Shown here: positions 23,512 to 49,365 of the stretch, piece by piece
How the letters are laid out: each line of letters starts with the position of its first letter
Position numbering within the stretch: position 1 is the stretch's first letter
Assembly: GCA_002441305.1 (NCBI GenBank)
Contig: DJVT01000009.1
Location: forward strand, 409,210-473,209
From: Candidatus Omnitrophica bacterium UBA6249
GTDB lineage: Bacteria > Omnitrophota > Gorgyraeia > Gygaellales > Profunditerraquicolaceae
DNA: 64,000 nucleotides
Reading direction: 5' to 3'
The notes under the pieces: generated by a model
Databases searched by the model: none
What the model saw: the letters and a program-made list of their open reading frames with translations, nothing else
Told to the model about the DNA's origin: nothing
Translations under genes and position numbers: made by a program

Positions 23512-24465
23512 TTACCGGTTACTGAAAACCGGGCGGGACAGAAAATACTGGTCCGTAAATTGTTTTTTTAACTCTCCGCCGGCCATACCTGAAAAACTCC
23601 AGTCCTCCTCTTTATCCATATTAAACAGCACGAAAGCTTTTATTTTACGCATAAGCTTTATATCACTCATAGCTTCCCTGATCCATTGGGCCTTATCCCC
23701 TCCCGAGCCTGCAGAACTGAATTCAGAGATCAATACCGGCTTATTCAGGCTTGCCGTAATCTCACTGTAGCGTCCTTCAAAAATCTCCCTGAAACTCATC
23801 CATCTGCTCCAATCCCTTGAATCCCCCCAGTTATATCCGTCTATGCCTACATAATCCACGTACCGGTCTCCCGGATAGTACAGAAGAAAGTTATTGTTTT
23901 CTAAAGGCACGTCTTCGGCGTTAATAGAAAACACCCACCTGACATTACCCGCCCTCTCCTCGTCAAATATCCCCTTAACATATCTGTATATGGCAGTATA
24001 TTTGTCTCTGCCTATCTTAACCCCCGACCAGGGATACCAGTTGCCGTTCATTTCATGCGCGAAGCGTAAAAATACCGGCTGCCCTATATTTTTAAGCCTC
24101 TCCGCAAATCTCCTTAAGTAATCATCCCATCTCCCGCCCAATAAAGCGTCATAATCGATTCCCTGCTTATTTTCCGCGTGCCACGGCTCCAGGGTGATGA
24201 ATAAAATACTGCCTGACGAATAAACATCCCCGATAACCTCCTCGTCAACATAATGCCCCCAATCTACAAAAACCATCAGCAGGTATGGCTGCCTGCCGAA
24301 TTCACTCTTGAATCTGGCAATATCCGGCTTTAACGGCCTGTCCGCCAGGAAAGCGCCTATGAGGCAAGAAGAGGTATTGGTACGCAGTATATTTACGCAA
24401 AAGACTGCCAGTAAAACAGTCAAAGAGGCGCAAAATGCAAAGGTGAAAAAAAAGCTTTTTTTCAT
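23512..24465 (-). CDS. Glycoside hydrolase family 26-like protein, secreted
   Basis: 317 aa with a signal peptide. FLRFAHEMNGNWYPWSG and LISEFSS match the GH26 acid/base and nucleophile regions. Confidence 0.75.
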   Translation of the reverse strand: MKKSFFFTFAFCASLTVLLAVFCVNILRTNTSSCLIGAFLADRPLKPDIARFKSEFGRQPYLLMVFVDWGHYVDEEVIGDVYSSGSILFITLEPWHAENKQGIDYDALLGGRWDDYLRRFAERLKNIGQPVFLRFAHEMNGNWYPWSGVKIGRDKYTAIYRYVKGIFDEERAGNVRWVFSINAEDVPLENNNFLLYYPGDRYVDYVGIDGYNWGDSRDWSRWMSFREIFEGRYSEITASLNKPVLISEFSSAGSGGDKAQWIREAMSDIKLMRKIKAFVLFNMDKEEDWSFSGMAGGELKKQFTDQYFLSRPVFSNR

Positions 24466-24878
24466 ACCTTATCTTTCAAAAAAGGAACATACTGCATATC
24501 CATTATTCTTATATGGTCCAAAAACCAGTCCCCTATTGTCTCCTTTACCATTTGCGCCAGATTGCTGGTTACCCCGTTTCTCTTCGTCTGTTCCTTGATT
24601 GCCACGATATTCTCAAGAAACCTGATATGGGCATTCTTATGGGGTGCATACTTGGAATAATTGTTTTTAAGCATCAAATCCTCTTCCGTGCTCAAATGGT
24701 GTTTGACGCAAGCATCCATCGCTTCCAAAATAAGCAGCATCTCCTGGGTCTCTTTAGCCAGGGCTAACGCCTTAAAAACATTGTTGAAATTTTCAAATAG
24801 CTCATTGTGCTGCCCGTCTATCAAAGCTATCCCTGTAGTTACGCTTATATCCAGCTTGTACAGCTTATACAGGCCCAT
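24462..24878 (-). CDS. Bacteriohemerythrin-type metal-binding protein
   Basis: 138 aa with IDGQHNELF...HLSTEE...HKNAHIRF...WFLDHIRIMD His/Glu/Asp ligand spacing. Its stop overlaps the GH26 start (4 nt). Confidence 0.8.
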   Translation of the reverse strand: MGLYKLYKLDISVTTGIALIDGQHNELFENFNNVFKALALAKETQEMLLILEAMDACVKHHLSTEEDLMLKNNYSKYAPHKNAHIRFLENIVAIKEQTKRNGVTSNLAQMVKETIGDWFLDHIRIMDMQYVPFLKDKV

Positions 24879-24891
24879 CGCGCCCTCCTGT

Positions 24892-27800
24892 TTATTGTTT
24901 TATTACATTCTTCCGCAGTTCAAAAGCGAGCTTCTCCAAAGCGGTTTTAAGGTTATCCAGGGACTTTGCCGCCCCCGAAAGATCCCCGCCTTCGCCGATC
25001 TTCTCGAGAGCGAAAGCCGCCTCGTGCGCAGCCTGGGCGCCGAAATTGGAAACGGCTCCTTTAACAGTATGAGCAATAAACCTTATTCCCGCCGCGTCAT
25101 TCTTTTTAAGCGCCTCATCCAACCCCTGCACCTGCTTGGGGTACTCTAACAGGAATATATTAACTATGCGCTTCAACAGCTCCGGATTATTTGACCCGGC
25201 ATGAGACAACGCCTTCTCCGCATCGAAGGTTTCCGGGGGACTTTTTACTTTCCCTCCCCCTAATACCTTGCTTAGGACTGATGATAGCGCCTGCATCTTC
25301 ACCGGTTTTGAAATATAATCATCCGTTCCTGCCTCAATACACTTTTCACGGTCTCCCTTCAGGGCATGCGCCGTCATGGCAATTATCGGGATATGGCCGG
25401 AGCCTGTCTTCTCCATTTCCCGAATACGCCTTGTGGCTTCAAATCCGTCCATCCGCGGCATCTGCATATCCATCAGGATGCAGTCAAAAGGCCCTTTCTT
25501 GGCCGCCTCTAAAGCCTCGAAGCCGTTTTCAACAATAACCACCTCATGCCCAAGCTGTTTCAGCATATCGGAGGCAACTTCCTTGTTGATGGCATTGTCT
25601 TCCGCCAGTAATATTTTTAACCCTCCCGGGCCATCCCCCGGGCTGCTTTTATGCGCAGCCGGTTCTTCGCCTTTTCCTGCCCCGCCGTCAAAAACCTGCA
25701 TGATACCGTGGAGCAATTCTGAAGGGGTTACCGGTTTAAACATAAAATACCCGATGCCTAATTCGGTAGCGCGGATACGGTCATTTTTCTTCTCACCGCT
25801 GGTAAGCATAATAACCTTGAGCTCTTTCATCCATCCGGAGCGTTTCAGCAAACCGGCGATTTCGAACCCGTCCATCTCCGGTAGATGATAATCCAAAAGA
25901 AGCAGTGAAAATGGCTTGCCCCCGCGCTTGGCCTCCTGGAGGATATCCAGCACGTCCTTGCCGCTTTCCAGCTCTTCAGGCGCCATATTCCAGCCCTTGA
26001 CATACTGTGAAAAAACAAGTCGGTTAGTCGCATTGTCATCGATAATCAAGACGCGCTTGCCGTCCAGGTCAATATTGACCTTATTCCTTTTTGGCGCAAA
26101 TTCTTTATCCAATTTAAACCAGATTCTAAAATGAAACACGCTTCCCGCGCCCGCGCCCGGTAAAACAGGTACAGGAGCGGGGCTTTCTACCCAGATCTCC
26201 CCTCCCATCATCTCTACAAACCGCTTTACGATGGATAGGCCGAGGCCCGTCCCCCCGAATTTACGGGTAGTGGACATATCCGCCTGTTCAAAAGGGGAAA
26301 AAATCTTTTTTTGAGCTTCTTTTGATATTCCTGTTCCCGTATCCCTGACAGAAAAATATACGCAACAAGCCTCATTTTTTATCTCGGCGGGCTCGATCTT
26401 TAGCTCTATCTCCCCTTTTGAGGTAAACTTCAGGGAGTTATTTACCAGGTTAACCAGTATCTGCCTCAACCTGTAAGGATCCCCGGTAAGGTTCTCGGGC
26501 AGGCCGAGAGCGATATTCCAGATAAGCTCTAAATCCTTATCCGCCGCCAAAAAGCCTATATCTTCCCCTATGTCACGAAGTGTTTCGTGGATATTAAAAG
26601 GGATATTTTCCAGCTTGATCTGCCCAGCTTCTATCTTGGAAAAATCAAGGATATCATTGATAATGTTAAGCAGTGCTTCGCCGGATGACTTAATCCTTGA
26701 AACATATTTTCTCTGCGCTTCATCCAGGGCCGTCCCGGAAAGAAGCTCGGTCATCCCGATAACCCCATTCATAGGAGTGCGGATCTCATGGCTCATATTG
26801 GCGAGAAATTCGCTTTTCGTCTTGTTGGCGCTTTCGGCCAACTCCCGGGCGTTCCTTAACTCCAGTTCATTTTGCTTGATGCCTGTAATATCATGCATAA
26901 CCAGGATAAAAAGCGATTCCAGCCTGCCAATAAACAGATTGACCGGAAGAATCGTATTATCCCTGGAAACAACGATGCGCTCGCCTTCGCCTCCAAACTG
27001 CCCATTACCGGATAATTTGTTTTGTTGGGGCAAAACATCGGTATTTAAATCCGTAAATAAGATATTTACCGGCTTATCGAGGATCTCCGCCTCGCTGTAC
27101 CCCAGCATTTTTTCCGCAGCTTTATTAAAAGAAGTAATAGCTCCTTTCGCGCTGACGGTAATTATCGGATTCGGGGCGGTATCGAGAATTGCCTTTATGC
27201 GCGCTTCGCTGTTACGCAGGTTTTGCTCAATTATCTTTCTTCCCCCGATCTCCTCCTCGAGGGAATCTTTGGTAGAAGCCAGGGCCTTGGATCTTTCCCA
27301 GAGCGTATAGGTAAAATAAACTACCGCCATAATCATCAAAGCGAACAACAAGCTTATCAGCAGGACAATCAACGGCATAGGCGAAGAGCCTTCGTTGATA
27401 AAATCCTCCGTAGGGCATATATTGACTAACCAGGACAGATTATGAAAATTCAAATTCCCTTCTACGTGCCACTTCTCGGATGCCTTTCCCCCTTTGCAAA
27501 AGGAAAATATCCTTCTGCCTTCTTCGTATATATCAAGGCAATTCTTCCTGAAAAATTCTTCCGGTATAACCTGCCTGATAAAATCATCTACCTTAAATAC
27601 GGCCGCGATATAGCCGTCGAATTGCCTATTGCGGTAAACCGGGATAAACCCCAAGAAACCTTTTCCCCCCTGGAATAAATCCACGGTCTTGCTGAAAACG
27701 ATCTCCTTTTTCTCCATAGCCGTATTCATGGCTTGGCGCCGGGAATATTCAAGGCCGAGATTGCGGCCTAAGGCGTTTTCGTTCCCTTCATAGGGGACAA

Positions 27801-28752
27801 TCCTTCTGACACTGCCAAACTGATCAACCCACTCTATAGCCTGGAATGACTTAAAATCCTCGACATAATTGCCGGCGTCCTCATCCCATTCATTTTCAGG
27901 CACTCCGCCCCGGGCAGACCAGCGCTCGGCCATCCTTTGCAGCGCCGTAGTATAAAGAGAACCTTTATTTACAATCGCATCTTCAACCAATGCCAGGTTC
28001 TGCTTCACGACGCTCTGAATATGGCGCTGTTCATTCAAGTATGCCATCTGCCAAAGGATAAAGGAAATAGTCACAAGAGAGATGCCTATCGGGACAATAG
28101 ACCATTTAGGAAGCAGAAACTTCTCCCCTCCCCGCTCCCCTTTTAAAGCTATGATTATCACCCCCAAAGAAAGCATCAGGAAGCCAAATGAAGTGTGCAT
28201 AGCCATGCGTGTATATATCTCCCAGATATAATTAGTCTCCCCTGGGGAAAAATAACTAAAAAGGGTAAAAGCGGATATGCCGAAGACCACAGAAACCAGC
28301 GTACCTGAAAAAAGGTATCGCATGCGGTAACGCCCCAAAGCCATGTTAATAAGGGACAGGGAAACCAGGAGAAAAGAAAATGAAGTGCTTGGGGACATGC
28401 GCCCGGGATGAAAACTCTTTACCCCGGTAAATCCCTTAATAAATAACTCATCAATCCCCAGGTTAATATTGAATTTATACTGATAAAGCACAAGCGCGGA
28501 AATAAACAAAACCGCCGCCGCCATGGTACCCGACGCGATATTCTTCTTCGCGCATATCAACAAAATGGAGGCGCCCAGCAAAAAAAGGCACAAAGCCGTG
28601 TTGAACTGCATAGGCGCCCAGGAAGGCATGAGCCGGATAACGGATACGTTCTTGAATAACCACCCCACCATGACGAAAAGGCCTAACACGCAGGTCACCA
28701 GGCCAAACGCGGCAGCGACAGGACAAAGAACAAATTTCTTTTTGGATTCCAT
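24892..28752 (-). CDS. Hybrid sensor histidine kinase (multi-TM, periplasmic sensor, PAS, HisKA/HATPase, two REC domains, HPt)
   Basis: 1286 aa. H-box MSHEIRTPMNG, an ATPase G-box (GGTGLGLSI), two receiver domains (LLLLDYHLPEMDG; ILMDMQMPRMDG), and a C-terminal HPt (IAHTVKGAVSNFGA). Confidence 0.9.
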   Translation of the reverse strand: MESKKKFVLCPVAAAFGLVTCVLGLFVMVGWLFKNVSVIRLMPSWAPMQFNTALCLFLLGASILLICAKKNIASGTMAAAVLFISALVLYQYKFNINLGIDELFIKGFTGVKSFHPGRMSPSTSFSFLLVSLSLINMALGRYRMRYLFSGTLVSVVFGISAFTLFSYFSPGETNYIWEIYTRMAMHTSFGFLMLSLGVIIIALKGERGGEKFLLPKWSIVPIGISLVTISFILWQMAYLNEQRHIQSVVKQNLALVEDAIVNKGSLYTTALQRMAERWSARGGVPENEWDEDAGNYVEDFKSFQAIEWVDQFGSVRRIVPYEGNENALGRNLGLEYSRRQAMNTAMEKKEIVFSKTVDLFQGGKGFLGFIPVYRNRQFDGYIAAVFKVDDFIRQVIPEEFFRKNCLDIYEEGRRIFSFCKGGKASEKWHVEGNLNFHNLSWLVNICPTEDFINEGSSPMPLIVLLISLLFALMIMAVVYFTYTLWERSKALASTKDSLEEEIGGRKIIEQNLRNSEARIKAILDTAPNPIITVSAKGAITSFNKAAEKMLGYSEAEILDKPVNILFTDLNTDVLPQQNKLSGNGQFGGEGERIVVSRDNTILPVNLFIGRLESLFILVMHDITGIKQNELELRNARELAESANKTKSEFLANMSHEIRTPMNGVIGMTELLSGTALDEAQRKYVSRIKSSGEALLNIINDILDFSKIEAGQIKLENIPFNIHETLRDIGEDIGFLAADKDLELIWNIALGLPENLTGDPYRLRQILVNLVNNSLKFTSKGEIELKIEPAEIKNEACCVYFSVRDTGTGISKEAQKKIFSPFEQADMSTTRKFGGTGLGLSIVKRFVEMMGGEIWVESPAPVPVLPGAGAGSVFHFRIWFKLDKEFAPKRNKVNIDLDGKRVLIIDDNATNRLVFSQYVKGWNMAPEELESGKDVLDILQEAKRGGKPFSLLLLDYHLPEMDGFEIAGLLKRSGWMKELKVIMLTSGEKKNDRIRATELGIGYFMFKPVTPSELLHGIMQVFDGGAGKGEEPAAHKSSPGDGPGGLKILLAEDNAINKEVASDMLKQLGHEVVIVENGFEALEAAKKGPFDCILMDMQMPRMDGFEATRRIREMEKTGSGHIPIIAMTAHALKGDREKCIEAGTDDYISKPVKMQALSSVLSKVLGGGKVKSPPETFDAEKALSHAGSNNPELLKRIVNIFLLEYPKQVQGLDEALKKNDAAGIRFIAHTVKGAVSNFGAQAAHEAAFALEKIGEGGDLSGAAKSLDNLKTALEKLAFELRKNVIKQ

Positions 28753-28764
28753 ACCTATCTCCTT

Positions 28765-29139
28765 TTAGGCGGTGATCATATCCCGGATCTTTTTTATGAG
28801 CAGGTCCAGGTCGAAAGGCTTGATAAAATATTCATCCGCTCCGTTTTGGATGGCTTTTTCCCTTTCCTGCTGGCTGCTTAAAGAAGAGAGGATGATTATG
28901 GGGATATTTTTGCAATCATCATCGAACTTGAGCATGCGGCACACTTCGAAACCGCTTATCTTGGGGAGCATAAGATCGAGGATGACCAGGTCGGGCTTCT
29001 CCTGCTTGGCCTTATTCAACGCCTCCTCTCCATCGGCTACGGCAACAACCTCAAAATCGTTGATCTCCAGGCGCATAGCCAGCACCTGCTGCGAAACCAA
29101 ATCATCTTCAGCGACCAGTATTTTTTTCATGCCTCCCAT
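28765..29139 (-). CDS. Stand-alone response regulator receiver protein
   Basis: 124 aa with KILVAEDD...LVILDLMLPKISG...K. Confidence 0.9.
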   Translation of the reverse strand: MGGMKKILVAEDDLVSQQVLAMRLEINDFEVVAVADGEEALNKAKQEKPDLVILDLMLPKISGFEVCRMLKFDDDCKNIPIIILSSLSSQQEREKAIQNGADEYFIKPFDLDLLIKKIRDMITA

Positions 29140-29156
29140 AGTGACCTCCCAATAAG

Positions 29157-29354
29157 TTAACTTTCAGGAAACTTGCCTTTTTGCTCGCGTATGAATTTAA
29201 AAGCGCCCGCGTTTTCGGAAGCTAAAACCTGCAGCTTGCTGAGAACCGCCTTATTATCCACAATATTCATCAGGTCGGTATAAATAACGATATTGCTTCT
29301 TAAAACATCTTCCAGCTCTTTAAAATAATTCTTATAGTCCTCGTTAGTAAACAT
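29157..29354 (-). CDS. Hypothetical 65-aa protein
   Basis: ORF in operon context only. No family recognised. Confidence 0.4.
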   Translation of the reverse strand: MFTNEDYKNYFKELEDVLRSNIVIYTDLMNIVDNKAVLSKLQVLASENAGAFKFIREQKGKFPES

Positions 29355-29583
29355 TACCCGCCCCCTCGCTCACTTCTTTTTTTATGCCCTTTAAGATATC
29401 GACATGCTCCCGCTGTTTGACAGCCATCTCCTGGAAACGGTCAAGGATACCGTCGCGCTCCTTCTGCTCCAACCCGCTGAAAAACAAAGCCGATGACACA
29501 TGTCTGTTCAATAAAGGCACGAGCCTTTCCTCCTGCTGGATGAGTTTTTCCACCTGTTTCAAAAGCTTGTCTTTGCCGATCAT
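29344..29583 (-). CDS. Hypothetical 79-aa helical protein
   Basis: The ATG at 29583 overlaps the synthase stop (ATGA). The track start 29682 is over-extended into the synthase gene. Confidence 0.45.
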   Translation of the reverse strand: MIGKDKLLKQVEKLIQQEERLVPLLNRHVSSALFFSGLEQKERDGILDRFQEMAVKQREHVDILKGIKKEVSEGAGNVY

Positions 29584-31418
29584 TTCATAACCTCCTTTAA
29601 CTGCCGCCTTGCAGACTCGGATGCGGTAAGCACGCCAACTGTAGTTTCGAACCCCTTGCGCCAAGCGCTTCGGCCCGACCAAACCACGACGCCTTCGAAA
29701 ACGAAGGAACTGCCGCCCTTCTCCTTGATTTTACACATCAGCTGGGTACCTGCATCAATGCGCTCAGGCAAAAAAACCGTAACGCAGATGCGCCAGGCAG
29801 CCTTATCCGTAACCGGCAGATTTTGCGCGTTGATTATATTATAACTAAAATCCGTTCCCGGGTACAGCCTCTTCCCCCTGATCCTGCCGGGCTCCTCTTC
29901 GCTAAAATAAAAGATGGAAGAAAGCAGCAGAAAATGATATAAAGCCCAGAACCCGTTTACCAGCAAAGCGGGCTCATGTTCGTAAACCAGCCGGTTTACC
30001 GCCCAAACCACAGCGATAAAATTCAACAAGAGCATGGCTATCTGGGGTAATAACCACCCCGGGGAAGGCGTATGCCTGCCGTCTTTGGAAGTGACCTCAA
30101 ATACCACTCTTTTCCCTATTAAGGCAAAAAATGCCGCCCGCATATACACCGGGAATGTCACCGCCGCCAGCAATTGCCCGCTGAACAGGCTATTGCTCCT
30201 GTAGTTACGCAGCCCCAATGCCATATAAAAAACGCTCAAGGAAAGAACAATATAAGGAATAAAGGTAAGGAAATATATGCCCGGCATGGCGAAGAACGAG
30301 GGAACTTTGAAAAGAATGTAAGCAATAGGGCATATCATCAGGGTAAAAAAAGCCGCTCCCGCGAAATAGTAAGAGCTGGAAAGAAAATACTCCCACCATT
30401 GAAAAGGCGAAAGAGAAAAGGGGTTTTTCAGAAAATACCAAAACAGCCTTTTGAACATGGAAAGCGTCCCGGTCGCCCAGCGGAATTGCTATTTAAAATA
30501 CTCCTGCAGGTTCTCCGGCCCCATGCCGAAAGTATAGGTATGAGGATAAAAAAGCGACCGCCACCCTTTTATGTGCAGTTTGACCGAAGTGGCGAAGTCC
30601 TCGGTGACGGATACCTCATCCAACCCTCCAACCTCTTTCAAGGCGGCAAGGCGGAATATGACGTTAGTCCCGCAGCAGAACATCGCGTCGCTTACGCTTT
30701 TGCCTTCGCAGATATATTCGTAAAATACGGACTGCTGGAAGGTGGATGCCTTGGCGACCCTGCTCGCTCCAATGTTGGAATAAAACTGGGGAGTCTGGAT
30801 AAAGGCCAGCTTCCCGTCTCTTTCCATTAATGATACCAGGGTACCCAGGAATTCCGGTAAGGGGTTCTGGTCTGCGTCAAAAAGAACTACATATTTCTGG
30901 GATAACGTCTTAAGGCAGTCATTAATGATCCCCGCTTTTGCTCCGTGACGCGAACCGCTTCTAAACAAAGAGAGGGCCAGCTCTTGGGCCAGCTCTTGGG
31001 CCTCTTTCCTGTATGTTTCTTCGGAGCTGTCGTCAAGAAAAAATACCTGCTTATTCTTATAGTTTAAGGCATTGATGGCCGAAAAAGTAGAGCGCAGCAC
31101 CTCCCGGGGCTCATGCCTTGCCGTTACCAAAACGGCAACCTCAGGCTGCGCGGGCGAGGTCAGGATTTCAGAAGCCCTGCCGGCTTCTTCCCTTTTGTCT
31201 TTTGCGGTAAAAACCTTAAATAGGTTAATAACATAACCCAGCGAATGGATGAGTACAAAAAATTCCCCTGCGATAAGCAGGCAGGCAAATATTCTGTCGA
31301 CCGGAGGGTACCCGTAAGACAAAAAAACCGCTATCCGCACTATAATATAAATCAAAGTGAGGATCGCCGCAAAAATGACGGCAAGATTGACCAATAACCC
31401 CGGCCCCATCCTGTTCAT
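29580..31418 (-). pseudogene. Processive family-2 glycosyltransferase (BcsA-like polysaccharide synthase) interrupted by one in-frame TAG
   Basis: Track ORFs 30489-31418 and 29580-30458 are in the same frame. Reading through the stop gives ..EYFK-TAG-QFRWATGTLSMFKR... The upstream part has 2 TM helices plus the FFLDDSS, LFDADQ and VTEDFA (TED) motifs. The downstream part has 5 TM helices and a C-terminal soluble domain. Confidence 0.75.
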
Positions 31419-31419
31419 A

Positions 31420-33033
31420 TCAGAAATAATACCTCATAGAAGCAGTGATATTCTTGTCTTTATAGACCCCTGAGCTGGATTTCTCAACCGAGCCCCTTAT
31501 GTTAAAGTTAAGCCTTTTGCTGATATCCCAGTTGAATTCCGCGCTGAACTTGTTGCCTATGACATTCTTGGAATCCACCGTAAACTCATAGCTCAAATCA
31601 TAATAAAGATCGTTGGCGCCGAAGAAAATTTCTTCCTTATTCAGGAAATGCCTCCAGTTGGCCTTCAATGAATTGACGGAAAAACCCTTGGGGGAAAAAT
31701 ACTCCGTTTTCTTCTCATCGAAATTACGGTAAAAATACTTGTACCTCAAGCTGAATCTCCTCGGGTCGAGGCTAATCAAGTAAAGCATCTCCATACCGGG
31801 CTCAACTTTATAGTTCCCATCCGAATAACGGGAATAGAGAAATTCTGCCTGTGATTTGAGGCGTTTATTGATATCGAAATCAAACCTTTGCAGATAATTA
31901 TCCGCATAATAGTTGTCACGGATAAGCTGGCTGGTATTCTCGAGCTGTTTGCGCTCAAAGGAGGTAAACGAAGTGACAATATCGGATATCCTGTAACGCA
32001 AGCTCCCGCCAAAAACCTGCAGCGGGTCAATGCCCCGGTTATAAGCGATCACTCCATAATATGCGTCCACGCCCCAATCCGGCGCCCGCAGGTAAGAAAA
32101 CCCGACTTCCGCCTTATTCTCCAGCACATCCGCAAAATCGGAAAACTTCCTGTAACTCAGCCTGTACCCGGCCCTGACATCCAGATTGTAATTACAGGGG
32201 GCGCTGGCGTAAGTAAAAAACGAACTTCTGTTGATGTCCTCCGACCTTGAAGGGCTGTCTGCCTCGAAAAACTCATACCCGGAATCAAGGCGCACGTGCC
32301 GGGAGAGCAATTCCGCCTTCTCCAGGCCCTCCCTGGCCCTGAAGTGCCGGGGGGAAATCCCAAGTATATCTTCATACCGGCCTTCGGCTTCCCTGAACAT
32401 CCCCTGGTAAGAATAGAGCTGGGAGAGGTCAAACATACCCTCCACATTACCGTTATCCTCCTTGATCAATTCATCGTAATTCCGGATAGCCCTGGTTACG
32501 CGGCCATCCCAATAAGCCCGCTTTGCCCTCATCTCCAAATCTATGCCCCGGTCGTAAGAATTTTCCAGCGCCTTCCTGTATTCCTCCAGAGAATCAGAGT
32601 ATTTTCTCTGCCAGCCAAGGATACGCGCCTTTTGCACCCTGGCCCTCTTATCCTCCCCGCGCTCGAGTATTTCATCATAAAGCGCTATGGCGCGGTCATA
32701 CTGTTTATCCCAGGATAAAACGTCCGCCAACTTTCTCTGGACCTCGGTATCGCCTTCCTCATCCAGTATCTGCGCATATAAAGCCGCCGCCTGTTCGAAT
32801 TTTCTTTCATAGGCTGATATATCGGCAAGCAAGACCCTTGCCTGCATATTCCGGGGGTCTTCGCGCAAAATAGCATTACAGGCCTCTCTTGCTTTTTCAT
32901 ACTGGCCGTCGCTTACATAAGCCCGGGATAACAGTAACCTTATATCCTCTTGGCCCTGTTCGCCCTTCGACAATACAGGGGAAAAAAGAAAAAGGAAACA
33001 TAACCCCACGGCAAGACACACCCTGCTCTTCAC
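31420..33033 (-). CDS. TPR-repeat plus C-terminal outer-membrane beta-barrel protein (BcsC/PgaA-like exporter)
   Basis: 537 aa. Signal peptide, N-terminal TPRs, an alternating beta-strand pattern in the C-terminal half, and a terminal ..MRYYF aromatic signature. Confidence 0.7.
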   Translation of the reverse strand: MKSRVCLAVGLCFLFLFSPVLSKGEQGQEDIRLLLSRAYVSDGQYEKAREACNAILREDPRNMQARVLLADISAYERKFEQAAALYAQILDEEGDTEVQRKLADVLSWDKQYDRAIALYDEILERGEDKRARVQKARILGWQRKYSDSLEEYRKALENSYDRGIDLEMRAKRAYWDGRVTRAIRNYDELIKEDNGNVEGMFDLSQLYSYQGMFREAEGRYEDILGISPRHFRAREGLEKAELLSRHVRLDSGYEFFEADSPSRSEDINRSSFFTYASAPCNYNLDVRAGYRLSYRKFSDFADVLENKAEVGFSYLRAPDWGVDAYYGVIAYNRGIDPLQVFGGSLRYRISDIVTSFTSFERKQLENTSQLIRDNYYADNYLQRFDFDINKRLKSQAEFLYSRYSDGNYKVEPGMEMLYLISLDPRRFSLRYKYFYRNFDEKKTEYFSPKGFSVNSLKANWRHFLNKEEIFFGANDLYYDLSYEFTVDSKNVIGNKFSAEFNWDISKRLNFNIRGSVEKSSSGVYKDKNITASMRYYF

Positions 33034-33620
33034 TCTCCCTCCTCTCTTTCCTTTAATAGGCCTTCATATATACCGGCAGCTTCCCTGGGATTGCCGGAAT
33101 ATTGCAGGGCTTTTGCAAGCAGCAACTTGACTTCCCTGTCGGCAGGATACTCCTCTGTCAGCTGGGTTAAAATATCCCTTGCTTTATCAAATTGCCTATT
33201 CCATATATAAACCTGGGCAAGCTCTTTTTTAATTCCGGGGCTATCCGCCGCCCTGTCCAGCTCATTATAAATATTTATCGCCTGCTTATATTCCCCTTCC
33301 CAGGCATAGCTCCGGGCTAAAGCTGTTTTCAGGCTGTCGTCTTCCCGGATGGCTAAAGCTTTTTGCAAAAGCCCTATTGCCCTCTTCGTGTCTCCTGTCC
33401 ACTGGCAAATATACGCTAAATCCACCAATGCGTCTATCCGCCCCGGATCAGCGGCAAGGGCATTTTCGTAGAAAAATACAGCCTTGCCGTATGCGCCTTT
33501 TTCGAAATATCTGCGCCCTGAATAATAATTTATATCTGATTTTTGCGTCTTATGATAAAAGAATGTTACAGATAAGGAGAGAATAACCAAGACAGATATG
33601 AACAGTGCAATTCTTTTCAT
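33030..33620 (-). CDS. Secreted TPR-repeat protein
   Basis: 196 aa with a signal peptide and TPR-like A/Y/G periodicity. 4-nt overlap with the next gene. Confidence 0.7.
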   Translation of the reverse strand: MKRIALFISVLVILSLSVTFFYHKTQKSDINYYSGRRYFEKGAYGKAVFFYENALAADPGRIDALVDLAYICQWTGDTKRAIGLLQKALAIREDDSLKTALARSYAWEGEYKQAINIYNELDRAADSPGIKKELAQVYIWNRQFDKARDILTQLTEEYPADREVKLLLAKALQYSGNPREAAGIYEGLLKEREEGE

Positions 33621-36779: not shown

Positions 36780-37719
36780 AAAATATCCCCCCTATAGCCC
36801 CGTAAAATACTACGAAGGAAAATGAAAGGATGGAAACTGCCAAGGCCAGCTGCTTTATCACTCCCGCCTTGGCGAAATAAAACACATACAACCCTTCCCT
36901 CAACCCCAGCCCGCCCATCGAAATCGGCAGTAGGGTAATTGCGTTTATTATCGGCACAAAGATCAAATAATAAAATATGTTTATTTTTACCCCCAGGGAA
37001 AGGCCGATAAAATAAATGCTTACCGGGAAGATAAGCTGTATGGCGAAAGAGATTGCGATATTGCCGGCGATCATCTTCTTATGATTGCGGAACACATGGA
37101 TCTCCCGGTGCATATCCTTTATCGCCTCCCTGATCCTGCCCGCCCCGGGCACGGAAAGAAAACCGGATATTTTCTCATAGATGAAGCTGTTGAATAAGAG
37201 CAGGAGCACGAGAAGCAGAATGAGCACTATCGCAGAAACGGAAATAAGCACGACCCTGTCGCTTACCAACGACCCTCCCAGCAGGAAAGCCGGGATAATC
37301 ACCAGGGCCATTCCTATATAGCCGCTCAGCCTGTCCAAGAATACGGATGCGATCACCTCTTTCGCCTTACGCGTATGCGATACCAGATCCGCGGTTCTCA
37401 CCAGGTCCCCGCCTATGGTCGAGGGCAGGAATATGCTGAAGAAAACGCCTCCGCAAAAACAGCTTATAAGCTTTTTCAGGGGGATAAATATATTTACCGC
37501 TTCGAGCAGTATCTTCCAGCGCCAAAAGCTCATTACGTAAGATAATATAAAAAATGCGAATCCCACGCACAAAAGCGCCCTGTCCGCGCTTTTTATATCC
37601 CGTAACAGGGAATTAAAATCTATTTTATTGAATTTGAAAAGGATAAAAAGAAGGATAAAACTTGTCGCGATCCTGAGCAATACCGATAGAAGCTTCTTGA
37701 AACCGTCTATCTTATTCAA
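36724..37719 (-). CDS. UPF0104 / lysylphosphatidylglycerol-synthase-TM-like (flippase-like) membrane protein
   Basis: 331 aa polytopic protein with RWKILL and [10 protein letters not shown] motifs. Confidence 0.7.
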
Positions 37720-38605
37720 GTTCTTTTCCTGTCAGCTTGCGGTAGGAATCCAGGTATTTATCGGTGGTCTTGGAGACTATCTCTGCGGGTAATTCGGGAG
37801 CCGGAGGCGCCTTATCCCAATCCAGGGTCTCGAGGTAATCCCTGACAAATTGCTTATCGAAGCTGGGCTGGGACCTGCCCGGCTCATATTTCTCGAGAGG
37901 CCAGAAACGGGAAGAATCCGGAGTCAATACCTCATCGATAATAATCATCTTTCCCCCGAGCATGCCGAATTCGAACTTTGTATCCGCGATAATTATCCCT
38001 TTGCCCAGGGCGTATTCGCTGGCCCTCCGGTAGATATCTATGCTCGCGCGCTTTAACTCTTCGGCCAGTTTACCGCCTACCAGCGATTCGACATAAGCCT
38101 GGTCCACATTTTCATCATGCCCGACATCAGCCTTTGTGGAAGGGGTAAATATCGGCTCGGGAAGCTTTCCGGATTCCCGCAACCCCTCGGGGAGGCGGAT
38201 AGAACAAACTGACTGTTTTTGCCTGTACTCTTTCCAGCCTGATCCGGAAAGATACCCTCTCACCACGCATTCAACCGGCAGGGGGTCTGTTTTTAAAACA
38301 AGCATGGAACGCCCGCGCAGAATCTTCTTGTATTTATTTAATTCAGGGGGGTATTCTTCTACGTTCGCGGTTATAAAATGGCTCCCGATCAGTTTTTTGA
38401 TAAAATCGAACCAGAAAACCGAAATACTCGTTAGCACCCTGCCCTTTTCAGGGATGCCCGAAGGGAGGATCACGTCAAAACATGATATCCGGTCGGTAGA
38501 GACAATTAACAGCTTATCTCCCAGGTCATAGACATCCCTCACTTTTCCCCGGCGGAAAAGTTTTAAATCCTGGAAATCGGTTCTTAACAAAAGATTATCC
38601 TTCAT
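37712..38605 (-). CDS. purC: Phosphoribosylaminoimidazole-succinocarboxamide synthase
   Basis: 297 aa. [21 protein letters not shown] and [10 protein letters not shown] are typical of SAICAR synthetase. Confidence 0.95.
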
Positions 38606-40391
38606 ATTTCTTCAACCTGGACATCAAATCATGGTATTCGCACCAGATCTCTTCCGGCAGGTCGCTTTTGAACTCCCCGAAGAACTTATTGATCCCCTTC
38701 AGCTCATCGAGCCAATCGTTCTTTTCGACCTTCAACAGTTTTTCCAGGGATTTTTCCGGCAGGTTGAGCCCGGTCATATCTATATCAAAAGGATACGGTA
38801 CATAACCTATCGGGGTCTCCATTGCGTTCACCCTGTTATTACAGCGATCCAGTATCCATTCCAGTATCCGCAGGTTCTCGCAAAAACCGGGCCAAAGGAA
38901 CTTGCCGTGCTCGTTTGTCCTGAACCAATTGACATGGAATATCTTCGGGGGCTTATTCATAAGCTTGCCCATATCCAGCCAATGCCGGAAATAATCCGCC
39001 ATGTTATACCCGCAGAAAGGCAGCATAGCCATAGGATCTCTGCGCACCTGCCCTATTTTTCCCACCTGCGCGGCGGTTAACTCCGAGCCCATGGTCGCCC
39101 CTACAAAAACCCCGTGCTGCCAATTAAACGACTGATAAACCAGGGGAGCTACGTGCTGGCGCCTCCCCCCGAAGATTATCGCCGAAATAGGGACTCCGTG
39201 ATGCTGGTCCATCCTAAAAGAAGCGGTAGGGCAATTAGCAACGGGAGCGGTAAAGCGCGCGTTTGGATGGGCTCCTTTTACCGGATTGCCGTTTGCGTCC
39301 TTCATATTAGGCTTCCATGGGTTGCCCTTCCAGTCCACCCCCTGGCTGGGTATGTCCCCGTCCGCGCCCTCCCACCAAACGGTATTATCCTGCTTTAAAA
39401 GGACATTGGTATAAATAGTGCCTTTTTTAATCGTCTCCACCATGCTCGGATTGGTCTTTGAGTTCGTCCCAGGGGCTACCCCGAAAAATCCCGTCTCGGG
39501 GTTTATCGCCCAGAGAGAACCGTCGGAATCAACGCGCATCCAGGAGATATCATCCCCCAGGGTCCAGATCCGGTAACCTTTTTTCTTAAGCCCCTCCGGC
39601 GGGACCATCATCGCCAGGTTTGTTTTTCCGCAAGCGCTGGGAAAAGCCGCGGCTATATATTCGATATGCCCATTGGGTTTCTCGATCCCCATGATCAGCA
39701 TATGTTCGGCCATCCATTTTTCCCTTTTTGCGGCATAGCTGGCTATGCGCAAAGAAAGGCATTTTTTCCCCAAAAGGACATTCCCACCGTAACCGGAACC
39801 CACGCTCCAAATGGTATTGTCTTCCGGGAAATGCAGAATCAGCCTCTTGTTGATATCCAGCTCGGCCTTGGAATGCAGGCACTTTGTGAAATTCTCGTCC
39901 CTTTCAATCTGCCTTAAGACCGCTTCCCCGCAGCGGGTCATAATCAACATATTCAGCACCACATAACGCGAATCGGTAACCTCCACCCCTATTTTGCTGA
40001 AAGGCGACCCTACAGGCCCCATAGAAAACGGGATCACATACATAGTCCTGCCGGACATAGCGCCTTTCAATATCGCCCGGGCTTTCTCGTAGGCCTTATC
40101 CGGGGCCATCCAGTTGTTGTTCGGCCCGGCATCGTTCTTCTTCCTGGTGCAAATAAAAGTCAGGTGTTCCGTACGGGAAACATCGTCATGCGCGGTACGG
40201 TGAAGGAGACATCCCGGAAGCTTGTCCTGGTTCAAGCGCACCATCTCCCCGCTGGCCACGCTCTCCTTTTCAATAGTCATCTTCTGTTCTTCCGAACCGT
40301 CGATCCAGACAATGCGATCCGGGCAGCAAAACTTGCTTATTTTACTCACCCAGTCGATTAATTTTTTACTGGTAGTGGGAAAATTCTCCAT
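38595..40391 (-). CDS. pckG: Phosphoenolpyruvate carboxykinase (GTP)
   Basis: The ATG at 40391 lies 2 nt after the trxB stop, with an AGGAG upstream. [10 protein letters not shown] and other GTP-PEPCK motifs are present. The track start 40493 overlaps trxB. Confidence 0.95.
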
Positions 40392-40393
40392 TT

Positions 40394-41314
40394 TTATCTG
40401 CTCCTGTCCGCGATGAATTTGTACGCGGAATCGGCCGCCACAGCCCCATCCCCGCACGCGTTTATTACCTGATAAAGGCTCTTCTTGCGGCAATCACCGC
40501 AAGCAAACACCCCTTCAGCCGATGTGAGCATCGCTTCATCGGTAATTATAAAACCTGCTTCATCCATATCTATTTTTCCTTTTAGAAACTGGGTTTCCGG
40601 CTCGTAACCCACGCAGACAAAAACTCCGTCGCAGGCAAAATCAATCTCTCCTCCGCTGATAAGATCTTTTATCCTTACGGATTCTACGCTCTTTCCCCCA
40701 TTGATTCCGTTAACCAGGCTGCTCAAAATAAAATTTATCTTTTTTTCTTTGCGCATCTTCTCCTGAAGTATCTGGGAGGCGCGCATCTCCTGCCTGCGGT
40801 GGACCACGCTCACAGAATCTGCAAAACGCGTCAAATACAGCGCCTCTTCCGCCACGGCATTCCCTCCTCCTACAAGCACCACTTTTTTCCCTTTGTAAAA
40901 AGGCCCGTCGCAAGTGGCGCAATAAGACACCCCGCGCCCCGTATACTCCTTTTCTCCCGGCACGTTCAATTTACGGTAATGCGCGCCCGAGGCAATAATC
41001 AGGGCCCCGAAAGAGTACTCGCCCCCCGAAGTTATTATCTTACTGCCGGAACAATCCAGGCCGGTAACTTCATCGTTCTCGAACTTTATCCCCAAATCCT
41101 TAACCTGGTTTTCCATGCGCCCAATCAATTCGACAGTAGTCACCCCTCCGGGAAAACCCGGATAATTTTCGATAGCCTCGCTCATCAGTATCCTGCCGCC
41201 AGTTGCCATCTTCTCGATAATAAGAGTATCCAGACGGCTGCGCCCAGCGTATAAAGCAGCAGTAAGCCCGGCCGGCCCTGCCCCGATAATAATCAAATCG
41301 CGCTTATTGTCCAT
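40394..41314 (-). CDS. trxB: Thioredoxin-disulfide reductase
   Basis: 306 aa with GAGPAG, the redox-active CATCDG, and GGGNAV. Confidence 0.95.
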   Translation of the reverse strand: MDNKRDLIIIGAGPAGLTAALYAGRSRLDTLIIEKMATGGRILMSEAIENYPGFPGGVTTVELIGRMENQVKDLGIKFENDEVTGLDCSGSKIITSGGEYSFGALIIASGAHYRKLNVPGEKEYTGRGVSYCATCDGPFYKGKKVVLVGGGNAVAEEALYLTRFADSVSVVHRRQEMRASQILQEKMRKEKKINFILSSLVNGINGGKSVESVRIKDLISGGEIDFACDGVFVCVGYEPETQFLKGKIDMDEAGFIITDEAMLTSAEGVFACGDCRKKSLYQVINACGDGAVAADSAYKFIADRSR

Positions 41315-47321: not shown

Positions 47322-47747
47322 TTACCAGAGCCAGGCCTTTATCTTCTCATCAGCCGCGCTCCAGGGGTATTCCGGGCGCATGACCGGCTTATCGTAAGGA
47401 GAAAAGGGGAAAGTTACCGTATCGTAAATTCCTGAAATTACGCGCACCAGGCTTATCGCTACCCCATTCACCAACCCGCTGGTCAACCCTGCCGCGGGAT
47501 CCTGTTCCTTGGAAACCTTGGCCACCTCAGCGGGTATCTCCATCCAAAATGTCGTCATATTTATAACCCCCCGTTCAAGTTTCTCCACAGGAGTATCATC
47601 ATCGCAAGAAATATCATCCCTGTCGATCTCGCCCGAGGAAAAATCCAGGAAATTCCCGCTTTCTCTCTCCAGGTCATAACAATATCCCGGCACGGTACAA
47701 ACAAAAAACAATAACATTATGTTTATAATCAAAACGGACTTCTTCAT
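47322..47747 (-). CDS. TIGR04073-like (exosortase-system-associated type) small secreted protein
   Basis: 141 aa with a signal peptide. The GLVNGVAISLVRVISGIYDTVTFPFSPYD core resembles that family. Confidence 0.6.
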   Translation of the reverse strand: MKKSVLIINIMLLFFVCTVPGYCYDLERESGNFLDFSSGEIDRDDISCDDDTPVEKLERGVINMTTFWMEIPAEVAKVSKEQDPAAGLTSGLVNGVAISLVRVISGIYDTVTFPFSPYDKPVMRPEYPWSAADEKIKAWLW

Positions 47748-48210: not shown

Positions 48211-48283
48211 CCCGGCAGCTCCGCTTTCCTGAATCAGGACCGGAAGCTTTGCGCCCCAGCATTACTGCTAGTTAGCCTTTGTC
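48211..48283 (-). promoter_or_regulatory. c-di-GMP-I (GEMM-I) riboswitch aptamer
   Basis: Minus-strand RNA: ACAAAGGCUAACUAGCAGUAAUGCUGGGGCGCAAAGCUUCCGGUCCUGAUUCAGGAAAGCGGAGCUGCCGGG. It matches the remembered GEMM-I core: ACAAAGGCAAAC, a GNRA-capped hairpin, GGGACGCAAAGC, CCGG, a second hairpin, then AGC..GCCGGG. Confidence 0.7.
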
Positions 48284-48289
48284 TATGGT

Positions 48290-48370: not shown

Positions 48371-49147
48371 TCAACCCAGTTTCTTCAGCAGGACCCCGGC
48401 CACTTTCTTTCCGGCCAAGAGCATTCCCCCGAAAACAGGCCCCATGCGCGGGGCGCCGAATACTGCGTTGGCGCACATTCCGCAGGAGAATAACCCGGGG
48501 CAGATTTCTTTGGAATTACCCACAATCGTGCTCTCCCCCGCTTCCGCCCACATTGATTTCTCGCCTTCCACCCTGCCTGTTCTTGTCCTTAAACGCATGC
48601 CTGACTTCTTTTCCACTATACGCGCTACCTCGGCGGGATGCCCGGTGGAATCCACCACAACCTTAGCGCGCATGACTATCGGGTCTACATGCAAACCGGC
48701 AATCTCGACGGCGCTCCAGTTCAATACAAGCCCGCCCACCTTCCCATTATGCACCATAACATCCTCTACGCTCATAAGATTGAATATTTTTAATCCTTCC
48801 TTTACCGCCCTGGAACAAATCGTGGAAACAGCCTCTATGGAATCCGCGACATAATACCCCTTTTCATAAAGCCTGCTCCTTATGCCGAACTCATCGAGCA
48901 TGGCCCTTGCTTTCTCCTGCACTACTATCTCGTTAAACATTATCCCGCCGCCCCACATTCCGCCCCCCACGGAAAGTTTTCTTTCAAAAAGGACGGTTTT
49001 TATCCCGGCTTTGGCCAAATAATAGCCGCACACCATCCCTGCAGGCCCCGCACCCACTATAGCTACATCGCTATCCAAAGCTTCTAACAGTTTATTTTTG
49101 TACGATTCGATTATCGCCCTGGAAATCTTTATTTCATCAAGCTTCAT
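48371..49147 (-). CDS. thi4: Thi4-family thiazole synthase
   Basis: The ATG at 49147 is preceded by [21 protein letters not shown] and the overall Thi4 pattern are present. The track start 49225 would run through the riboswitch terminator. Confidence 0.85.
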
Positions 49148-49183
49148 CTTCCTCCTCCTCTCAAACGGCAACATGCGCATTCC

Positions 49184-49216
49184 AATAAAAAACCCTCGCG
49201 CCGGTGCGCAAGGGTC
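49184..49216 (-). terminator. Intrinsic terminator acting as the TPP riboswitch expression platform
   Basis: On the minus strand: ACCCUUGCGC-accg-GCGCGAGGGU, a 10-bp stem with one G-U pair, followed by UUUUUUAUU. Confidence 0.8.
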
Positions 49217-49231
49217 AAAATACAAAAAATA

Positions 49232-49325
49232 CGTTTATCCCTCCGCTGGCATTACCCAGATCAGGTTATTAGGGTCATCTGCTCTCTGCGCAGAACTCTC
49301 AGACCGCCAAACGGTCTCCCCTTTT
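49232..49325 (-). promoter_or_regulatory. TPP (THI-box) riboswitch
   Basis: Minus-strand RNA: GGGGAGACCGUUUGGCGGUCUGAGAG...ACCCUAAUAACCUGAUCUGGGUAAUGCCAGCGGAGGGA. It contains the CUGAGA, ACCC, AACCUGAUCUGG.UAAU.CCAGCG.AGGGA signature and lies upstream of thi4. Confidence 0.9.
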
Positions 49326-49365
49326 TTATTATTTTATCACAATAAGGCAAAAATCAAAATAAAAG

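What the first reader, a model, noticed from the sequence alone, without database searches (positions are those of the whole stretch)
30456..30491. Single in-frame TAG replaces the catalytic-motif Gln of QxxRW in the polysaccharide synthase
Seen in the sequence: the two synthase ORFs are in the same frame, and reading through the stop gives ..NLQEYFK-TAG-QFRWATGTLSMFKRLF... Aligned on RWA, the TAG occupies the Q of the Q(Q/R)xRW motif of processive GT2 enzymes. TAG differs from the Gln codon CAG by one transition. TAG is a genuine stop elsewhere in the window, for example in def at 41321. Established knowledge: low-level natural suppression of UAG often inserts Gln, which here would recreate the wild-type motif. 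There are three options: a recent inactivating mutation (pseudogene), an assembly or population polymorphism, or leaky read-through that keeps synthase levels very low.
Basis: partly seen in the sequence, partly recalled or inferred. Interest (0 to 1): 0.6.

Follow-up and report, generated by a model that had tools for sequence, protein, structure and literature searches.

The report
Nonsense-mutated polysaccharide synthase gene in Omnitrophota
A cellulose-synthase-like gene of an uncultured Omnitrophota bacterium carries one real C-to-T change that turns an essential glutamine codon into a stop, so it is most likely a recently inactivated gene, which is an ordinary event.

Summary
On the minus strand, one reading frame (31418..29580) encodes a 612-codon BcsA-like processive GT2 synthase. 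It is interrupted once, by TAG at 30491..30489. That codon aligns with the Gln of QxxRW: Q379 of Rhodobacter BcsA, and Q in 29/29 homologues.

- **Real, not an artefact.** The same TAG is in 7 independently assembled contigs from several sequencing projects, 99.8-100% identical to the window.
- **Origin.** The closest relative (79% amino-acid identity) reads AAG-CAG-CAA there, so the change is CAG>TAG.
- **TAG is a normal stop here.** Nine other genes in the window end at TAG at the full length of their families.
- **No recoding signal found.** There is no tRNA in the window, no unusual RNA structure at the site and no Shine-Dalgarno sequence before the downstream ATG. The stop is not conserved beyond this near-clonal species.
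- **Age.** No second lesion has accumulated. Relative-rate counts show no significant acceleration (Fisher p=0.14).

Best reading: a young nonsense allele, fixed in all sampled populations, that abolishes or nearly abolishes the synthase. Gln-restoring near-cognate read-through is chemically possible, but that holds for any CAG>TAG mutation and nothing here supports it. Interest is low.

The parts
29580..31418 (-). Whole interrupted gene: BcsA-like processive GT2 polysaccharide synthase, 612 codons in one frame with one internal TAG. Likely a pseudogene.
   Evidence: Translation. Full-length homologues of 606-617 aa at 49-59% identity, mostly Candidatus Omnitrophota. Best PDB sequence match is BcsA, E 3.9e-34.
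30489..30491 (-). Premature TAG stop replacing the CAG (Gln) codon, which is the first residue of QxxRW.
   Evidence: The closest relative L088 reads AAG CAG CAA TTC CGC TGG at the same place. Identical TAG in L001-L003 and L084-L087.
30477..30491 (-). The five codons of the QxxRW motif: TAG CAA TTC CGC TGG = *QFRW.
   Evidence: Alignment to BcsA QRGRW. Q311, R313 and W314 are invariant, and the stop column is Q in 29/29 homologues.
30492..31418 (-). Upstream fragment, 309 aa: two N-terminal TM helices plus a GT-A domain with LDDSS, FDADQ and VTEDFATS motifs. This is the only product expected from normal termination.
   Evidence: Pfam Glyco_tranf_2_3, Glyco_trans_2_3 and Glycos_transf_2. Motifs are invariant in the alignment.
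29580..30488 (-). In-frame remainder, 302 codons plus stop: the rest of QxxRW, the transmembrane channel helices and a C-terminal beta-barrel domain. The listed ORF starts at ATG 30458 and has no Shine-Dalgarno sequence.
   Evidence: The upstream 25 nt, CCGCTGGGCGACCGGGACGCTTTCC, lack the GGAGG-type sites seen before neighbouring genes. TIGR03030 CelA match to profile positions 393-574. AF2 model of homologue P0001.
31420..33033 (-). Upstream operon gene: 537-aa TPR protein with a signal-peptide-like N-terminus. The export-porin role and any C-terminal beta-barrel (BcsC/PgaA-like) are inferred from gene position and weak TPR-region matches only; the C-terminal half was not examined. Intact.
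   Evidence: Pfam TPR families. Weak NCBIfam matches to PgaA and BcsC, in the TPR region. A TPR gene sits at the same position in orthologous loci.
33030..33620 (-). 196-aa TPR protein, first gene of the cluster. Intact.
29344..29583 (-). Conserved 79-aa gene that overlaps the synthase stop by 4 nt. No family assigned.
   Evidence: Called as 79 aa in L001/L084 and in orthologous loci L089/L090. No Pfam or NCBIfam hit.
29157..29354 (-). Conserved 65-aa gene. No family assigned.
   Evidence: 62-75 aa in orthologous loci. No hit.
28765..29139 (-). Stand-alone response-regulator receiver gene, conserved next to the synthase.
   Evidence: Pfam Response_reg 2.9e-27. Same position in L089 and L090.
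24892..28752 (-). 1286-aa hybrid histidine kinase (CHASE-PAS-HisKA-HATPase-REC-Hpt) downstream in the cluster.
   Evidence: Precomputed Pfam list.
23512..24465 (-). GH26 glycoside hydrolase, conserved in the cluster. It occupies the place that BcsZ has in bcs operons.
   Evidence: PF02156 in both the window strain and L089.

Best explanation
This is an ordinary nonsense mutation. In an uncultured Candidatus Omnitrophota species, a single C-to-T transition changed the CAG codon for the Gln of the QxxRW motif of a BcsA-like, membrane-embedded processive GT2 polysaccharide synthase into TAG.

Shown:
- the base is real;
- it is present in every sampled population of this near-clonal species;
- relatives have Gln (CAG in the nearest one);
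- TAG terminates other genes in the same DNA.

Inferred: RF1 terminates translation after Lys309, releasing a 309-aa fragment (two TM helices plus the GT-A domain). That fragment lacks QxxRW, the interface helix, the translocation channel and the C-terminal beta-barrel. The synthase is therefore inactive, or active only at the trace level that background near-cognate read-through allows. The allele is young: no second lesion is present, there is no significant rate acceleration, and the rest of the operon is intact. In short, this is a recently formed unitary pseudogene, meaning loss of one exopolysaccharide pathway in this lineage.
For: - One frame with one stop.
- The stop column is Q in 29/29 homologues and aligns with Q379 of BcsA.
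- The closest relative (79% aa, L088) has CAG with otherwise identical flanking residues.
- TAG is present in 7 assemblies: SRR5323233, JGI 3300001592 (Medicine Hat oil-field water, PMC5029510), SRR13427970, GCA_028693475.1 and SRR22315505/6/8. They are 99.8-100% identical to the window.
- No full-length allele of more than 63% identity appears in the protein collection. The 90% clusters of both halves contain only 309-aa and 292-aa members.
- TAG ends 9 other genes; the 7 with a Pfam family match it to or near the profile end.
- No tRNA in the window.
- RNA fold around the site has z=0.16, and there is no Rfam family there.
- No SD sequence before the downstream ATG, whereas most neighbouring genes have GGAGG-type sites.
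- No literature on stop-codon recoding in Omnitrophota.
Against: - The part of the gene after the stop shows no frameshift or second stop, and it keeps all residues that are invariant across the 30-sequence alignment. Translation of that part is therefore not excluded.
- Relative-rate counts give no significant sign of relaxed constraint: N-half 14 window-derived vs 19 sister-derived changes, C-half 21 vs 13, Fisher p=0.14.
- The allele is fixed at several distant sites. A selected allele would show this, but so would a recent clonal spread: core divergence outside one recombined tract is only 4 SNPs in about 16 kb.
- Expression, read-through level and polymer production were not measurable here.
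Confidence: 0.8

Rival explanations
1. Functional leaky stop. Near-cognate tRNA-Gln(CUG) occasionally reads the UAG, inserts Gln and recreates the wild-type enzyme. Selection keeps the allele because a very low synthase level is advantageous.
For: The ancestral codon was CAG, so Gln insertion restores the wild type. Q is a documented near-cognate insertion at UAG in E. coli (PMC4333366). The downstream 302 codons are undamaged and keep all invariant residues. The allele is fixed in all 7 assemblies. The base after the stop is C, which from my own recollection of E. coli work is a relatively weak termination context; this was not tested here.
Against: Every CAG>TAG mutation has the property of being restored by Gln, so it carries no information. 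The stop is absent from the nearest relative and from all 29 aligned homologues. There is no stimulatory RNA structure. Two of the nine normal TAG stops in the window are also followed by C, so the context is not distinctive. The strains that share the stop diverged too recently (about 0.025% outside one tract) for its persistence to imply selection.
Confidence: 0.1
2. Functional split gene. The 309-aa GT fragment and a 292-aa membrane/beta-barrel fragment (re-initiated at ATG 30458) assemble into a two-subunit synthase.
For: An ATG lies 30 nt after the stop in the same frame. Both fragments are annotated as separate proteins in public MAGs.
Against: Re-initiation at that ATG would omit QFRWATGTLS, and therefore the invariant R313, W314 and G317. 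There is no Shine-Dalgarno sequence before it, unlike most neighbouring genes. No member of the family in the searches is naturally split at this point; the short hits that were inspected are cut where their contig ends or diverges.
Confidence: 0.03
3. Sequencing or assembly error, or a minority allele that happens to be the consensus.
For: None positive. Only consensus assemblies, not reads, could be inspected.
Against: The same base appears in 7 contigs from Logan, JGI (454+Illumina) and NCBI MAG assemblies of different samples, including a strain that differs at 41 other positions. No CAG-allele protein is on record.
Confidence: 0.02
4. Recoding of UAG in this organism, by a suppressor tRNA, pyrrolysine or code reassignment.
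For: None. The whole genome could not be scanned.
Against: TAG ends 9 other genes, and the 7 with a Pfam family match it to or near the profile end. No other gene in the 64-kb window is interrupted by TAG. There is no tRNA in the window. Pyl at a Gln that is invariant across homologues is implausible. No report of recoding in Omnitrophota was found.
Confidence: 0.02

Closest known systems
Bacterial cellulose synthase catalytic subunit BcsA (R. sphaeroides 4hg6/4p00; E. coli 9b8v)
   Same: Best sequence match in the PDB (E 3.9e-34, residues 92-503). It is also the best fold match for the AF2 model of homologue P0001 (Foldseek E 3.6e-29, TMq 0.69, 650-690 aligned columns). The two share the N-terminal TM pair, the GT-A domain with DDx / DxD / TED / QxxRW, a following helical membrane domain and a C-terminal beta-barrel. 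The operon has a TPR gene upstream (BcsC-like by position; barrel not examined) and a glycoside hydrolase.
   Different: Only about 20% identical. NCBIfam CelA scores 246.6 bits for the intact homologue against a cut-off of 699.1, so it is not an equivalog and the polymer is unknown. No BcsB gene is evident. The hydrolase is GH26 rather than GH8 BcsZ. The C-terminal domain gives no Pfam PilZ hit. In this window the Gln codon of QxxRW is a stop.
Unitary pseudogenes created by a single nonsense mutation (for example, loss of surface-polysaccharide genes in clonal bacterial lineages)
   Same: One disabling transition in an otherwise conserved gene. Orthologues are intact. The lesion is fixed in a near-clonal lineage. 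The neighbouring operon genes are still intact.
   Different: Nothing distinguishes it in kind. The lesion happens to fall on a catalytic-motif residue. There is no independent evidence yet of decay, so it must be young.
Programmed stop-codon read-through (for example, leaky UAG in the coat-protein gene of RNA phage Qbeta, or in tobamovirus replicases; from my own knowledge)
   Same: An in-frame UAG followed by a long conserved open frame. The CAA codon after the UAG resembles the tobamovirus UAG-CAA-UUA context.
   Different: In programmed cases the stop is conserved among relatives and both the short and long products are functional. Here the stop is absent from all relatives and the short product lacks essential parts. 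The tobamovirus context is defined for eukaryotic ribosomes.

Membership tests
Processive membrane-embedded GT2 synthases (BcsA/CesA/HAS/chitin-synthase type) | GT-A domain with the conserved Asp motifs (DDx, DxD) and the TED catalytic motif | tested here: met
   LDDSS (128-132), FDADQ (180-184) and VTEDFATS (271-278) are invariant or nearly invariant in the 30-sequence alignment and aligned to BcsA. Pfam GT2 families hit.
Processive membrane-embedded GT2 synthases (BcsA/CesA/HAS/chitin-synthase type) | Intact QxxRW motif | tested here: not met
   Codon 310 is TAG; the remainder, QFRW, is present in frame. The gene descends from a family member, but as encoded it lacks the motif.
Processive membrane-embedded GT2 synthases (BcsA/CesA/HAS/chitin-synthase type) | Transmembrane channel domain following the interface helix | tested here: met
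   The AF2 model of 58%-identical homologue P0001 (pLDDT 82.7) has helices at 301-502. Its best fold matches are BcsA chains. The window encodes the same region in frame after the stop.
Cellulose synthase BcsA proper (NCBIfam TIGR03030 / NF008558) | Score above the curated equivalog cut-off | tested here: not met
   The intact homologue P0001 scores 246.6 bits vs a cut-off of 699.1, and 156.4 vs 992. The window fragments score 141.7 and 30 bits.
Cellulose synthase BcsA proper (NCBIfam TIGR03030 / NF008558) | C-terminal PilZ domain with c-di-GMP-binding RxxxR / DxSxxG motifs | tested here: inconclusive
   A beta-barrel is predicted at residues 520-597 of the P0001 model, and alignments to BcsA span 650-690 columns. 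There is no Pfam PilZ hit at E<=0.01, and by eye the family consensus has no conserved RxxxR or DxSxxG.
Programmed stop-codon read-through / recoding site | The stop codon is conserved at the site among orthologues | tested here: not met
   Q in 29/29 homologues; CAG in the nearest relative. TAG is shared only among strains 99.8-100% identical to the window.
Programmed stop-codon read-through / recoding site | Stimulatory RNA structure or a distinctive context | tested here: not met
   151-nt fold: -39.4 kcal/mol vs a shuffle mean of -40.0, z=0.16. No Rfam match at the site. A 3' C also follows 2 of the 9 normal TAG stops.
Programmed stop-codon read-through / recoding site | Suppressor tRNA (CUA anticodon), Pyl machinery, or loss of RF1 in the genome | not testable with these tools
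   No tRNA in the 64-kb window. The genome is not among the species representatives that were searched, and only 10-kb flanks can be fetched.
UAG-reassigned genetic code | UAG is not used as a terminator; in-frame UAG occurs in many conserved genes | tested here: not met
   10 of 66 genes end at TAG. Of the other nine, the 7 with a Pfam family match it to or near the profile end. No other TAG-interrupted gene is present.
Unitary pseudogene | Disabling lesion in a gene whose orthologues are intact, verified independently of one assembly | tested here: met
Unitary pseudogene | Relaxed selective constraint after the lesion | tested here: inconclusive
   Polarised substitutions: N-half 14 (window) vs 19 (sister); C-half 21 vs 13; Fisher p=0.14. 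The window protein has the most departures from otherwise invariant or >=90%-conserved columns of the 30 sequences (4/89 and 2/45; 7/120 and 9/72), but two homologues are close to it.
Unitary pseudogene | No full-length product made | not testable with these tools
   Needs proteomics or a reporter assay.

The most novel reading that the evidence does not exclude
The UAG is kept by selection as a throttle. Background near-cognate decoding by tRNA-Gln rebuilds the exact wild-type QxxRW enzyme at roughly 0.1-1% of normal output. That would give this host-associated or ultra-small Omnitrophota lineage a trickle of exopolysaccharide, or make synthesis conditional on states in which termination is weakened. 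It would be a bacterial chromosomal gene regulated by a leaky stop placed on its own catalytic residue.
Probability: 0.06. Interest if true: 0.6.

Novelty: already known. Interest (0 to 1): 0.15.

Why it matters
The practical value is mostly in annotation. Public MAGs list the two halves as 'glycosyltransferase' and 'hypothetical protein'. Together they are one broken BcsA-like synthase, so metabolic reconstructions of this Omnitrophota species should not credit it with this exopolysaccharide pathway. The case also shows that a stop landing on a catalytic residue, with Gln as the likely read-through residue, is what any CAG>TAG mutation looks like and is not evidence of recoding. If the small-probability read-through reading were true, it would be a rare example of expression control by a leaky stop in a bacterial chromosomal gene.

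Tried and rejected
- **Metagenome scans (no result).** Two scans of metagenome contigs both returned 0 hits. One used a degenerate pattern for Y-F-x-stop-Q-[FY]-R-W..G-T, to look for recurrent stops at this codon in other lineages. The other used the exact 24-mer with Y at the mutated base, to look for CAG strain variants. The window's own JGI contig was not found either, so the collection evidently lacks it and both nulls are uninformative.
- **Species-representative genomes.** The genome-contig scan with the read-through protein gave 80 loci at 43-65% identity. The window's own species was not among them, so the genome could not be scanned for tRNA-CUA, pyl genes or prfA.
- **Code reassignment:** rejected.
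- **RNA structure or RNA family at the site:** none.
- **Functional split gene:** rejected because the restart would omit R313/W314 and has no SD sequence.
- **Second lesion in the upstream TPR gene pair (196 + 537 aa vs single 714-1304-aa genes in relatives):** judged unlikely by eye, because both ORFs start with their own hydrophobic, signal-like N-termini and overlap by GTGA. This was not tested further.
- **Relative-rate and conserved-column tests for relaxed constraint:** not significant.
- **Literature search for stop-codon recoding in Omnitrophota:** nothing relevant found.

Full report
**Observation.** The gene lies on the minus strand. Translating 31418..29580 in one frame gives 612 codons with exactly one internal stop...GMGPENLQEYFK*QFRWATGTLSMFKRLF.... 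The plus-strand bases 30489-30491 are 'cta', which is TAG on the coding strand. The ORF list shows the two pieces, 30489..31418 (309 aa) and 29580..30458 (292 aa, starting at the first ATG 30 nt after the stop). Pfam places GT2 domains on the first piece and nothing on the second.

**What the gene is.** A search of the 5.8-billion-cluster protein collection with the read-through sequence returned more than 1,300 relatives. The best are 606-617 aa (or about 505 aa without the C-terminal domain) and 49-63% identical. Nearly all come from Candidatus Omnitrophota MAGs, and several are labelled 'cellulose synthase (UDP-forming)' by JGI. Against PDB sequences the best match is BcsA of R. sphaeroides and E. 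coli (E about 4e-34, residues 92-503). An AlphaFold2 model of the 58%-identical full-length homologue P0001 (pLDDT 82.7) has the following layout:

- two N-terminal helices;
- a GT-A domain;
- a long helix starting at residue 301 (Q307 of QxxRW lies near its start), followed by membrane helices;
- a C-terminal beta-barrel.

Its best fold matches are BcsA chains (Foldseek E 3.6e-29, TMq 0.69). NCBIfam's cellulose-synthase equivalog models are hit far below their cut-offs (246.6 vs 699.1 bits for the intact homologue). The family is therefore BcsA-like, and its product is unknown.

The operon context is conserved in the window strain and in two distant Omnitrophota loci. The order is: TPR protein(s), synthase, a 79-aa gene, a gene of about 65 aa, a receiver-only response regulator, Hpt/histidine-kinase genes, and a GH26 hydrolase.

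**The stop sits on the Gln of QxxRW.** In a 30-sequence alignment the stop column is Q in all 29 homologues (YFKQQFRWA), with Q311, R313, W314 and G317 invariant. In the HMMER alignment to 4hg6 the column pairs with the first Q of BcsA's QRGRW.

**The base is real, and the ancestor was CAG.**

- The exact 309-aa product is encoded on contigs from SRR5323233, JGI 3300001592 and SRR13427970. These are 100% identical to the window over 20.9, 7.0 and 3.3 kb. JGI 3300001592 is a Medicine Hat oil-field water metagenome (PMC5029510).
- A one-residue variant (M4T) of the product is on GCA_028693475.1 and on three contigs from SRR22315505, SRR22315506 and SRR22315508, which are 99.80-99.98% identical to the window.
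- All of these read AAA TAG CAA TTC CGC TGG.
- No full-length allele closer than 63% exists in the collection. The 90% clusters of both halves hold only 309- and 292-aa members.
- The nearest relative found (P0124, 79% identical over the N-terminal half, GCA_030153525.1) reads ...GAG TAT TTT AAG CAG CAA TTC CGC TGG....
- The lesion is therefore a single CAG>TAG transition that arose on the window's lineage after that split.

**TAG is an ordinary terminator here.** Of 66 likely genes in the window, 34 end in TAA, 22 in TGA and 10 in TAG. Seven of the nine other TAG-terminated genes have a Pfam family and match it to or near the end of the profile (the other two have no Pfam hit):

- Prismane 513/513;
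- Pep_deformylase 153/156;
- Cys_Met_Meta_PP 380/381;
- Rrf2 131/132;
- TrmO_N 116/116;
- DsbD_2 198/199;
- a radical-SAM enzyme, followed by a separate thioesterase gene.

Two other TAG stops are followed in frame by the next gene, but those are distinct genes with their own starts. ARAGORN finds no tRNA in the window.

**No sign of a recoding device.**

- The 151 nt around the stop fold no better than shuffles (z=0.16).
- Rfam finds nothing at the site.
- The 25 nt before the downstream ATG lack the GGAGG-type sites that precede most neighbouring genes.
- A restart at that ATG would also omit the invariant R313, W314 and G317.
- A literature search turned up nothing on stop-codon recoding in Omnitrophota.
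- Near-cognate insertion of Gln at UAG is documented in E. coli (PMC4333366), so a trace of wild-type enzyme could be made.
- That is a property of any CAG>TAG mutation. The gene has 12 more CAG codons and 222 single-base routes to a stop in total. The fact that Gln insertion would restore the motif therefore carries no evidential weight.

**Age of the lesion.**

- The frame after the stop has no further stop or frameshift, and it keeps every residue that is invariant across the 30-sequence alignment.
- Differences from the nearest relatives were polarised with 29-31 outgroup sequences. The N-terminal half has 14 window-derived vs 19 sister-derived changes. The C-terminal half has 21 vs 13. 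The C-half excess includes changes at positions that are 87-100% conserved in the family (K437R, T439V, F477L, N506S). It is not significant (Fisher p=0.14).
- Of the 30 aligned sequences, the window protein has the most departures from otherwise invariant or >=90%-conserved columns, in both halves. Two homologues come close.
- The strains that share the TAG differ by 41 SNPs in 20.4 kb. Of these, 37 lie in one 4-kb tract (36843-40820), leaving 4 SNPs in about 16 kb. Their common ancestor is thus very recent, and persistence of a single-hit pseudogene over that time needs no selection.

**Verdict.** The finding is a correctly observed, real premature stop. The best explanation is a young nonsense allele, fixed in every assembly sampled from this near-clonal Omnitrophota species, that inactivates a BcsA-like synthase (confidence about 0.8). 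The rivals and their confidences are:

- selected leaky read-through, about 0.1;
- a functional split gene, about 0.03;
- an artefact or minority allele, about 0.02;
- UAG recoding, about 0.02.

As a phenomenon it is already known and of low general interest. Its practical value is in annotation, because the two 'genes' in public MAGs are one broken synthase.

**What did not work.** Two scans of the metagenome contig collection returned nothing, not even the window's own JGI contig, so they say nothing. The species is not among the representative genomes that could be scanned. A genome-wide search for a suppressor tRNA, Pyl genes or RF1 was therefore not possible.

Noticed in passing
window 48211-48287 (-) and 47322-47747 (-): A c-di-GMP-I riboswitch (59.8 bits, gathering threshold 35). 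Downstream of it are an ORF of about 88 aa and a gene of the exosortase-system-associated TIGR04073 family. The organism therefore uses c-di-GMP signalling, even though the synthase's C-terminal barrel gives no PilZ hit.
   Followed up: partly
window 49221-49332 (-): A TPP riboswitch (65.4 bits, gathering threshold 54.3), immediately upstream of the gene at 48371-49225.
   Followed up: no
window 36843-40820 vs L084 (GCA_028693475.1): 37 of the 41 SNPs between the two strains cluster in this 4-kb stretch (PEPCK, SAICAR synthase, LPG_synthase_TM, and the Pyr_redox gene at 40394-41314). Most of them are synonymous. The other ~16 kb carries only 4 SNPs, all non-synonymous. This looks like a recombination tract in an otherwise near-clonal pair.
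   Followed up: partly
window 23512-33620 (-); L089, L090: A conserved Omnitrophota gene cluster: TPR protein(s), BcsA-like GT2, a 79-aa gene, a gene of about 65 aa, a receiver-only response regulator, Hpt/hybrid kinase and GH26 hydrolase. The two small genes have no family assignment. GH26 in place of a GH8 BcsZ suggests that the polymer may not be cellulose.
   Followed up: partly
window 29580-29880 (-) (C-terminal ~100 codons); P0001 residues 520-597: The family's C-terminal domain is predicted as a beta-barrel and superposes within whole-chain BcsA alignments. It has no Pfam PilZ match, and by eye no conserved RxxxR or DxSxxG. About half of the homologues (about 505 aa) lack the domain altogether.
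   Followed up: partly
L088 2340-2391: In the closest relative's contig (2391 bp), the synthase frame diverges from the family 17 codons after QQFRW and hits a TAG 26 nt before the contig end. This is probably a contig-end assembly artefact rather than a second broken allele.
   Followed up: no
L091 3011-3892: Another family member (P0160, 293 aa, 60% identical to the window protein) ends prematurely at ...GWKSLYYLNNA, where relatives continue NHVYAFGMGPE. The remaining 278 bp of the contig carry an opposite-strand ORF. This may be an insertion, a rearrangement or a chimeric contig.
   Followed up: no
window 31420-33620 (-): The TPR component is two overlapping genes here (196 aa + 537 aa, GTGA overlap, each with a hydrophobic N-terminus). 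Distant orthologous loci have a single TPR gene of 714-1304 aa. This is probably a natural arrangement, but no alignment was made to rule out a second break.
   Followed up: no
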